From a virus (taxonomy: Duplodnaviria; Heunggongvirae; Uroviricota; Caudoviricetes), in IMG/VR virus record IMGVR_UViG_2563366968_000005, positions 1 to 43,077 of that record: a stretch of DNA of 43,077 nucleotides. One strand, given 5' to 3'. This document shows, piece after piece, positions 13,191 through 13,278 of this stretch. The number at the start of each line of letters is the position of its first letter. Position 1 is the first letter of the stretch. The position numbers are program-made.

Positions 13191-13278
13191 TTAAATCTAT
13201 CACCGCAAGGGATAAATATCTAACACCGTGCGTGTTGACTATTTTACCTCTAGCGGTGATAATGGTTGCATGTACTAA

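What the first reader, a model, noticed from the sequence alone, without database searches (positions are those of the whole stretch)
13245..13261. Single-base difference in oR1 relative to canonical lambda
oR1 reads TACCTCTAGCGGTGATA, whereas I recall lambda wild type as TACCTCTGGCGGTGATA. The changed base is next to the operator centre. oR1 is the highest-affinity CI site and several virulence mutations map to it, so the change may alter repression strength or the induction threshold. Cro also differs at one residue (…HAGRNIFLT… versus recalled …HAGRKIFLT…).
Basis: partly seen in the sequence, partly recalled or inferred. Interest (0 to 1): 0.4.

Follow-up and report, generated by a model that had tools for sequence, protein, structure and literature searches.

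The report
Common natural variant of lambda oR1
The one-base difference from textbook lambda in the main repressor-binding site is real, but it is the usual wild form of this site (phage HK97 and most other natural lambda-immunity phages carry it), and published binding data reproduced in a later paper put its effect on repressor binding at about two-fold, so it is ordinary.

Summary
Confirmed: window 13245-13261 reads TACCTCTAGCGGTGATA. Lambda (NC_001416, annotated operator-r1) reads TACCTCTGGCGGTGATA. Cro has N39 where lambda has K39. This is not a private mutation. The cI-oR-cro segment differs from phage HK97 at 1 of 1100 bases and from lambda at 23 of 1022, and 13252 is the only difference in the cI-cro intergenic region. 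oR2, oR3 and oL1-3 are identical to lambda. The same A is present in HK97, mEp234, HK106, CL707, HK244, HK542 and mEp332, whose GenBank records annotate the site as oR1. It is the majority allele in uncultured data: 47 A to 29 G in IMG/VR and 21 A to 10 G in metagenomes. The window's haplotype (oR1-A, Cro N39, CI T3A and K71N) is the commonest one. The Sarai and Takeda (1989) values, reproduced in PMC2194778, give +0.4 kcal/mol (about 2-fold) for CI at this exact substitution, in the weakly contacted non-consensus half. oR1 stays far stronger than oR2 and oR3. The base is also position -18 of PR, so a small promoter effect is possible. Any effect on Cro binding was not checked. Verdict: a known natural polymorphism with at most a subtle effect on the switch. 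Low interest.

The parts
13245..13261 (+). oR1, 17-bp CI/Cro operator. Variant base A at 13252 (lambda has G), position 8 of the non-consensus half.
   Evidence: Lambda annotation 'operator-r1'. The same sequence is annotated 'operator oR1' in mEp234 and HK106.
13221..13237 (+). oR2, identical to lambda
   Evidence: Alignment; lambda annotation
13198..13214 (+). oR3, identical to lambda
13235..13263 (+). PR promoter: -35 TTGACT at 13235-13240, 17-nt spacer, -10 GATAAT at 13258-13263, start at 13270. The variant base is spacer position -18.
   Evidence: Promoter scan. pR and its +1 are annotated in the mEp234 record at equivalent positions.
13194..13222 (-). PRM promoter (-10 at 13194-13199, -35 at 13217-13222), identical to lambda
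   Evidence: Coordinates transferred from the mEp234 annotation; sequence identity
12474..13187 (-). cI repressor gene, 237 aa. Differs from lambda CI by T3A and K71N (numbering with Met1; Thr2 and Lys70 of the mature protein).
13288..13488 (+). cro, 66 aa, K39N relative to lambda
10901..10961 (-). oL1 (10901-10917), oL2 (10925-10941) and oL3 (10945-10961), all identical to lambda

Best explanation
The site is the oR1 operator of a lambda-immunity (imm-lambda) switch, carried here by a mosaic lambdoid prophage or phage whose immunity region is the HK97 allele. The A at 13252 is a long-standing natural polymorphism, not a new mutation. It is the commoner allele in wild imm-lambda phages, and laboratory lambda carries the minority G. 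The expected mechanism is that of lambda (inferred from near-identity, not tested here). CI dimers bind oR1 first and oR2 cooperatively, which blocks PR and activates PRM. Cro made from PR binds oR3 first. The A lies in the non-consensus half-site next to the centre, where CI makes few specific contacts, and it weakens intrinsic CI binding by about 0.4 kcal/mol (about 2-fold) in vitro. With oR1-oR2 cooperativity and unchanged oL sites, the site hierarchy and repression should be essentially preserved. Cro K39N and CI T3A/K71N are linked polymorphisms of the same haplotype, not required partners of the operator change.
For: Identity and context: the cI-oR-cro segment differs from HK97 at 1 of 1100 bases (12462, outside oR) and from lambda at 23 of 1022 bases. 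Of those 23, 15 are in cI, 1 is in the cI-cro intergenic region, 5 are in cro and 2 lie just past cro. oR2, oR3 and oL1-3 are identical to lambda. Distribution: A is present in HK97, mEp234, HK106, CL707, HK244, HK542 and mEp332. G is present in lambda, SfI, ev243, ev099 and HK544. An IMG/VR scan with N at the site gave 47 A, 29 G and no C or T. Metagenome contigs gave 21 A and 10 G. In complete E. coli genomes the exact 57-mer with A occurs in 82 records and with G in 114. Haplotypes: the window's combination is the most frequent, 23 of 80, against 12 of 80 for the lambda reference haplotype. A occurs with K39 in 39 loci and with N39 in 28. G with N39 occurs once. Affinity: the Sarai and Takeda 1989 values reproduced in PMC2194778 Table 3 give G10-C32 to A-T = +0.4 kcal/mol. 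Additive scores keep oR1-A (+0.4) well ahead of oR3 (+2.2) and oR2 (+3.0). Prior record: GenBank EF120455-EF120461 annotate this sequence as oR1. They belong to Degnan et al. [quoted passage not shown]
Against: No binding or in vivo measurement was made here. The +0.4 kcal/mol value was read second-hand from a table in another paper, and the original was not available. The effect of the base on Cro binding (Takeda et al. 1989) could not be retrieved. The effect of Cro K39N is unknown. Allele counts come from exact-flank pattern scans, so variants with other nearby changes are missed. Loci are not phylogenetically independent. Lambda DNA used in laboratories may inflate the G counts. Small affinity changes at oR1 can shift the induction set point in a sensitive switch.
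Confidence: 0.85

Rival explanations
1. The oR1 A, Cro N39 and CI T3A/K71N together form a co-adapted, retuned version of the lambda switch. It would have a different CI/Cro balance at oR1 and hence a different induction threshold or lysis-lysogeny bias, maintained by selection.
For: N39 is found almost only on the A background: 28 A/N39 against 1 G/N39. The A/N39/T3A/K71N haplotype is the commonest. The CI change T3A lies in the N-terminal arm, which contacts bases near the operator centre (own knowledge of the lambda repressor-operator crystal structure, not tested here).
Against: A occurs with K39 Cro in 39 loci. G occurs with CI T3A/K71N in 11 IMG/VR loci, and A with T3 in 4 loci. All combinations therefore exist, as expected from linkage plus recombination over 70-150 bp. 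The measured CI effect of the base alone is small. Loci share ancestry, so the association is not independent evidence.
Confidence: 0.1
2. The main consequence of the base is on the PR promoter, not on repressor binding. 13252 is spacer position -18, which sigma-70 residue R451 senses, so G->A may change intrinsic PR strength.
For: The base is at -18 of PR. Singh et al. 2011 (PMC3130263) show that changes at -18 alter the activity of several promoters. They report that a G->A change at -18 of the LEE1 promoter raised activity in an R451-dependent way.
Against: Spacer effects depend on context and are usually modest. PR already has a near-consensus -35 and -10 (10 of 12 matches). There are no data for PR itself.
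Confidence: 0.15
3. The A is a sequencing or assembly error in this window.
For: None found.
Against: The same base is present in independently sequenced phages (HK97, mEp234, HK106, CL707, HK244, HK542, mEp332), in 68 scanned contigs and in 82 E. coli genome records.
Confidence: 0.01

Closest known systems
Phage HK97 right operator (NC_002167 28963-29026, annotated 'OR; operator', bound by CI and Cro)
   Same: oR1, oR2 and oR3 are identical, including the A in oR1. Cro (N39) and CI (T3A, K71N) are identical. There is 1 mismatch in 1100 bases across cI-oR-cro.
   Different: The rest of the window is not HK97. The replication module is an O-like protein plus a Toprim/DnaB-like primase-helicase. 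The structural half is P22-like, nearest phiv205-1 and CUS-3.
Phage lambda oR1 (NC_001416 37998-38014)
   Same: 16 of 17 bases are the same. Position relative to PR, oR2, oR3, cI and cro is the same. All five other operators are identical.
   Different: G in lambda and A here at the 8th base. The published CI binding penalty is +0.4 kcal/mol.
Wild imm-lambda phages of Degnan et al. 2007 (GenBank EF120455-EF120461: HK544, mEp332, HK244, HK542, CL707, mEp234, HK106)
   Same: Six of these seven carry the same A in a site annotated as oR1. mEp234 and HK106 also share Cro N39.
   Different: Flanking N, cII and the genes between oL and cI differ among isolates. HK544 has the lambda G.
Lambda virulent (operator-constitutive) oR1 mutations such as v3 and vC1 (own knowledge)
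   Same: A single-base change within oR1.
   Different: Virulence mutations strongly reduce CI binding and let the phage grow on lysogens. This substitution costs 0.4 kcal/mol and is carried by phages deposited as temperate, lambda-immune isolates.

Membership tests
Lambda-immunity (imm-lambda) CI/Cro switch, right operator | Three 17-bp partially symmetric sites with lambda spacing between divergent cI and cro, overlapping PR and PRM | tested here: met
   oR3 at 13198-13214, oR2 at 13221-13237 and oR1 at 13245-13261. The alignment to lambda has no gaps and differs at one base in the intergenic region. PR was found by scan.
Lambda-immunity (imm-lambda) CI/Cro switch, right operator | CI and Cro proteins of lambda specificity | tested here: met
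   CI is 235/237 identical to lambda CI and Cro is 65/66 identical. The helix-turn-helix stretches are unchanged in the protein comparison.
Lambda-immunity (imm-lambda) CI/Cro switch, right operator | Matching left operator set (oL1-3) for long-range cooperativity | tested here: met
   oL1, oL2 and oL3 at 10901-10961 are identical to lambda.
Lambda-immunity (imm-lambda) CI/Cro switch, right operator | Homoimmunity with lambda: no growth on a lambda lysogen, and the reverse | not testable with these tools
   Only indirect. [quoted passage not shown]
Lambda virulence-type oR1 operator mutation | Large loss of CI affinity at oR1 | tested here: not met
   The published value for this exact substitution is +0.4 kcal/mol. 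The median over all 51 substitutions is 1.0, and strongly contacted positions give 2.5-3.7. This rests on literature values, not a new measurement.
Lambda virulence-type oR1 operator mutation | Arises as a rare mutant selected for growth on lysogens | tested here: not met
   It is the majority allele in natural collections: 68 A to 39 G over two scans. It is also present in 7 named temperate isolates.

The most novel reading that the evidence does not exclude
The wild-type majority form of the lambda switch (oR1-A, with or without Cro N39 and CI T3A/K71N) has a measurably different set point from laboratory lambda. The difference would come from slightly weaker CI binding at oR1, a -18 spacer effect on PR and an altered Cro. 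If so, the textbook quantitative behaviour of the switch describes a minority allele.
Probability: 0.1. Interest if true: 0.35.

Novelty: already known. Interest (0 to 1): 0.07.

Why it matters
It matters little for discovery. The variant has been in public records since the HK97 genome and the 2007 survey of wild lambda-immunity phages, and its effect on CI binding was measured in 1989. The useful points are for calibration. Laboratory lambda carries the minority allele at this base, so a difference from the lambda reference in an immunity region should first be read as natural allelic variation. Quantitative models of the lambda switch built on lambda's oR1 may be off by about 2-fold in the oR1 affinity for most wild imm-lambda prophages.

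Tried and rejected
1. Degnan et al. 2007 could not be read, by DOI or by PubMed id. Its content is therefore inferred from its title and its GenBank annotations.
2. Sarai and Takeda 1989 and Takeda et al. 1989 are not held. The CI values were taken from the table reproduced in PMC2194778. The Cro values were not found.
3. Literature searches for the role of Cro Lys39 gave one relevant item. A Cro with a lysine analogue at position 39 still repressed PRM (PMC11980383). This says little about Asn.
4. Sequencing error was rejected because the base recurs in independent records.
5. A virulence-type operator mutation was rejected on affinity and distribution.
6. Obligate co-variation of oR1-A with Cro N39 or CI T3A was rejected because all allele combinations occur.
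7. Total A and G allele counts in the E. coli genome collection were not obtained. About 560 genomes hold a related oR, but only exact 57-mers could be counted.

Full report
**Observation.** Window 13245-13261 on the + strand reads TACCTCTAGCGGTGATA. A search with the lambda oR1 sequence, allowing 3 mismatches, found four sites where 0.05 were expected by chance. They sit at the positions of oL1, oL2, oR3 and oR1. In NC_001416 the site annotated 'operator-r1' (37998-38014) reads TACCTCTGGCGGTGATA. The difference is therefore real: G->A at window 13252, the 8th of 17 bases, next to the central base pair. The Cro remark is also right. The 66-aa product of 13288-13488 differs from lambda Cro only by K39N (base 13404).

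**What the region is.** The segment 12400-13500 (cI, oR, cro) differs from phage HK97 at 1 of 1100 bases, at 12462, just past the cI stop codon. It differs from lambda at 23 of 1022 bases:
- 15 differences are in cI, two of which change the protein (T3A and K71N, numbering with Met1).
- 1 is in the cI-cro intergenic region. This is the reported base.
- 5 are in cro, one of which changes the protein.
- 2 lie just past cro.

oR2, oR3, PRM and PR are otherwise identical to lambda, and so are oL1, oL2 and oL3 at 10901-10961. The reported base is thus one marker of a diverged natural allele of the lambda immunity region, not a point mutation of lambda.

The window as a whole is a mosaic. Its early-left and immunity part is HK97-like. 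It has an N-type antiterminator, a CII homologue, an O-like initiator and a Toprim/DnaB-like primase-helicase. Its structural half is P22-like and is nearest to phiv205-1 and CUS-3.

**Distribution.**
- Read directly, the A is present in HK97, mEp234, HK106, CL707, HK244, HK542 and mEp332. The G is present in lambda, SfI, ev243, ev099 and HK544.
- GenBank records EF120455-EF120461 annotate this very sequence as 'operator oR1', bound by 'Cro; CI'. [quoted passage not shown] That citation was seen; the paper itself is not held.
- An exact-flank pattern scan with N at the variable base gave 47 A and 29 G in IMG/VR, and 21 A and 10 G in metagenome contigs. No C or T was found.
- In 5,426 complete E. 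coli genomes, about 560 carry a related oR. The exact 57-mer with A occurs in 82 records and with G in 114, and some of the G records are laboratory K-12 lysogens.

The A is thus a common allele, and in two collections the majority one.

**Haplotypes.** The window's combination (oR1-A, Cro K39N, CI T3A and K71N) is the most frequent single haplotype, at 23 of 80. The lambda reference haplotype accounts for 12 of 80. Over both scans the counts are A/N39 28, A/K39 39, G/K39 38 and G/N39 1. G also occurs with CI T3A/K71N (11 loci) and A with T3 (4 loci). N39 probably arose on an A background, but neither change needs the other. The pattern fits linkage with occasional recombination over 70-150 bp.

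**Expected effect on CI.** PMC2194778 Table 3 reproduces the experimental free-energy changes of Sarai and Takeda (1989) for every single substitution of oR1, written as T3...A19 = TACCTCTGGCGGTGATA. The window's change is G10-C32 to A-T, at +0.4 kcal/mol. That is about a 1.9-fold change in Kd. By comparison, the median over all 51 substitutions is 1.0 kcal/mol, and the strongly contacted positions give 2.5-3.7 kcal/mol.

The base lies in the non-consensus half-site. Natural lambda operators already vary at the equivalent position, with G, C or T (read from the sequences). Adding the tabulated values keeps oR1-A (+0.4) well ahead of oR3 (+2.2) and oR2 (+3.0). The order of site filling that underlies the switch should therefore be kept. 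That CI then works as in lambda is inferred from near-identity and established knowledge of lambda, not tested here: it binds oR1, recruits a second dimer to oR2, blocks PR and activates PRM.

**A second possible effect.** The base is also position -18 of PR. The -35 is at 13235-13240, the spacer is 17 nt, the -10 is at 13258-13263 and the start is at 13270. Singh et al. 2011 (PMC3130263) show that sigma-70 residue R451 senses position -18. They report that a G->A change at -18 raised the activity of the LEE1 promoter. A modest effect on intrinsic PR strength is therefore possible but unmeasured.

**Cro.**
- The Cro free-energy table (Takeda et al. 1989) could not be retrieved, so the effect of the base on Cro binding is open.
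- The effect of K39N is not known from anything I could read. The one relevant item is that a lysine analogue at position 39 left Cro able to repress PRM (PMC11980383).
- From memory, unverified: Lys39 follows the base-contacting Arg38 and lies near the DNA backbone.
- N39 Cro is carried by named, cultured phage isolates (HK97, mEp234, HK106) and by about a quarter of the scanned loci, so it is compatible with function.

**Comparison with what is known.** This is the HK97-type allele of the lambda right operator. It meets the sequence-level criteria for an imm-lambda switch: operator layout, CI and Cro identity, and matching oL. Homoimmunity cannot be tested here. It does not meet the criteria for a virulence-type operator mutation, because the affinity loss is small and the allele is the natural majority.

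**Verdict.** Novelty: already known. Interest: low. The most novel reading not excluded is that the wild majority form of the switch has a measurably different set point from laboratory lambda. I put that at about 0.1.

Noticed in passing
window 13250-13253: The G->A change creates the tetranucleotide CTAG where lambda has CTGG. From memory, very-short-patch repair in E. coli tends to convert CTAG to CTGG or CCAG. If so, mutation pressure would favour the lambda G, and the persistence of A as the majority allele would be mildly notable. This was not tested.
   Followed up: no
window 11144-12396 (- strand): The space between oL and cI is occupied by rexA and rexB in lambda. Here it holds a 216-aa ORF and a 135-aa ORF with no Pfam match, plus a 51-aa ORF with only a weak, below-threshold Pfam match to a PspC transmembrane region. 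HK97 gp48 and gp49 occupy the equivalent place. These may be prophage-expressed accessory or exclusion genes of unknown function.
   Followed up: partly
window 14098-16946: The replication module is an O-like initiator (286 aa) followed by a 626-aa Toprim plus DnaB-like primase-helicase. This is unlike the O/P pair of HK97 or lambda, although the immunity region is HK97-type.
   Followed up: partly
window 25001-43077: The structural half of the window is P22-like. The nearest records are Escherichia phage phiv205-1 (74% covered, 95% identity) and CUS-3. The element is therefore a mosaic of an HK97-like early region and a podovirus-type late region.
   Followed up: partly
window 20800-20955: Two adjacent tRNA genes, tRNA-Asn (GTT) and tRNA-Thr (TGT), lie within the phage.
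   Followed up: no
window 13181 and 12975 (cI codons 3 and 71): CI differs from lambda by T3A, in the N-terminal DNA-binding arm, and by K71N. This pair is the majority form among scanned imm-lambda loci and occurs with both oR1 alleles.
   Followed up: partly
IMG/VR loci L004-L079 and phage CL707 (L111 721-737): Other rare natural operator variants exist. The oR3 centre has A->G (TATCACCGCGAGGGATA) in CL707 and in one IMG/VR locus. There are single-locus changes in oR2, and a group of 8 loci has changes between oR3 and oR2 and near the PRM start.
   Followed up: no
E. coli complete genomes: About 560 of 5,426 complete E. coli genomes (roughly 10%) carry a lambda-like oR1/PR segment. Most of them have one to five further differences in the 57 bases around oR1. 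These variants were not examined.
   Followed up: no
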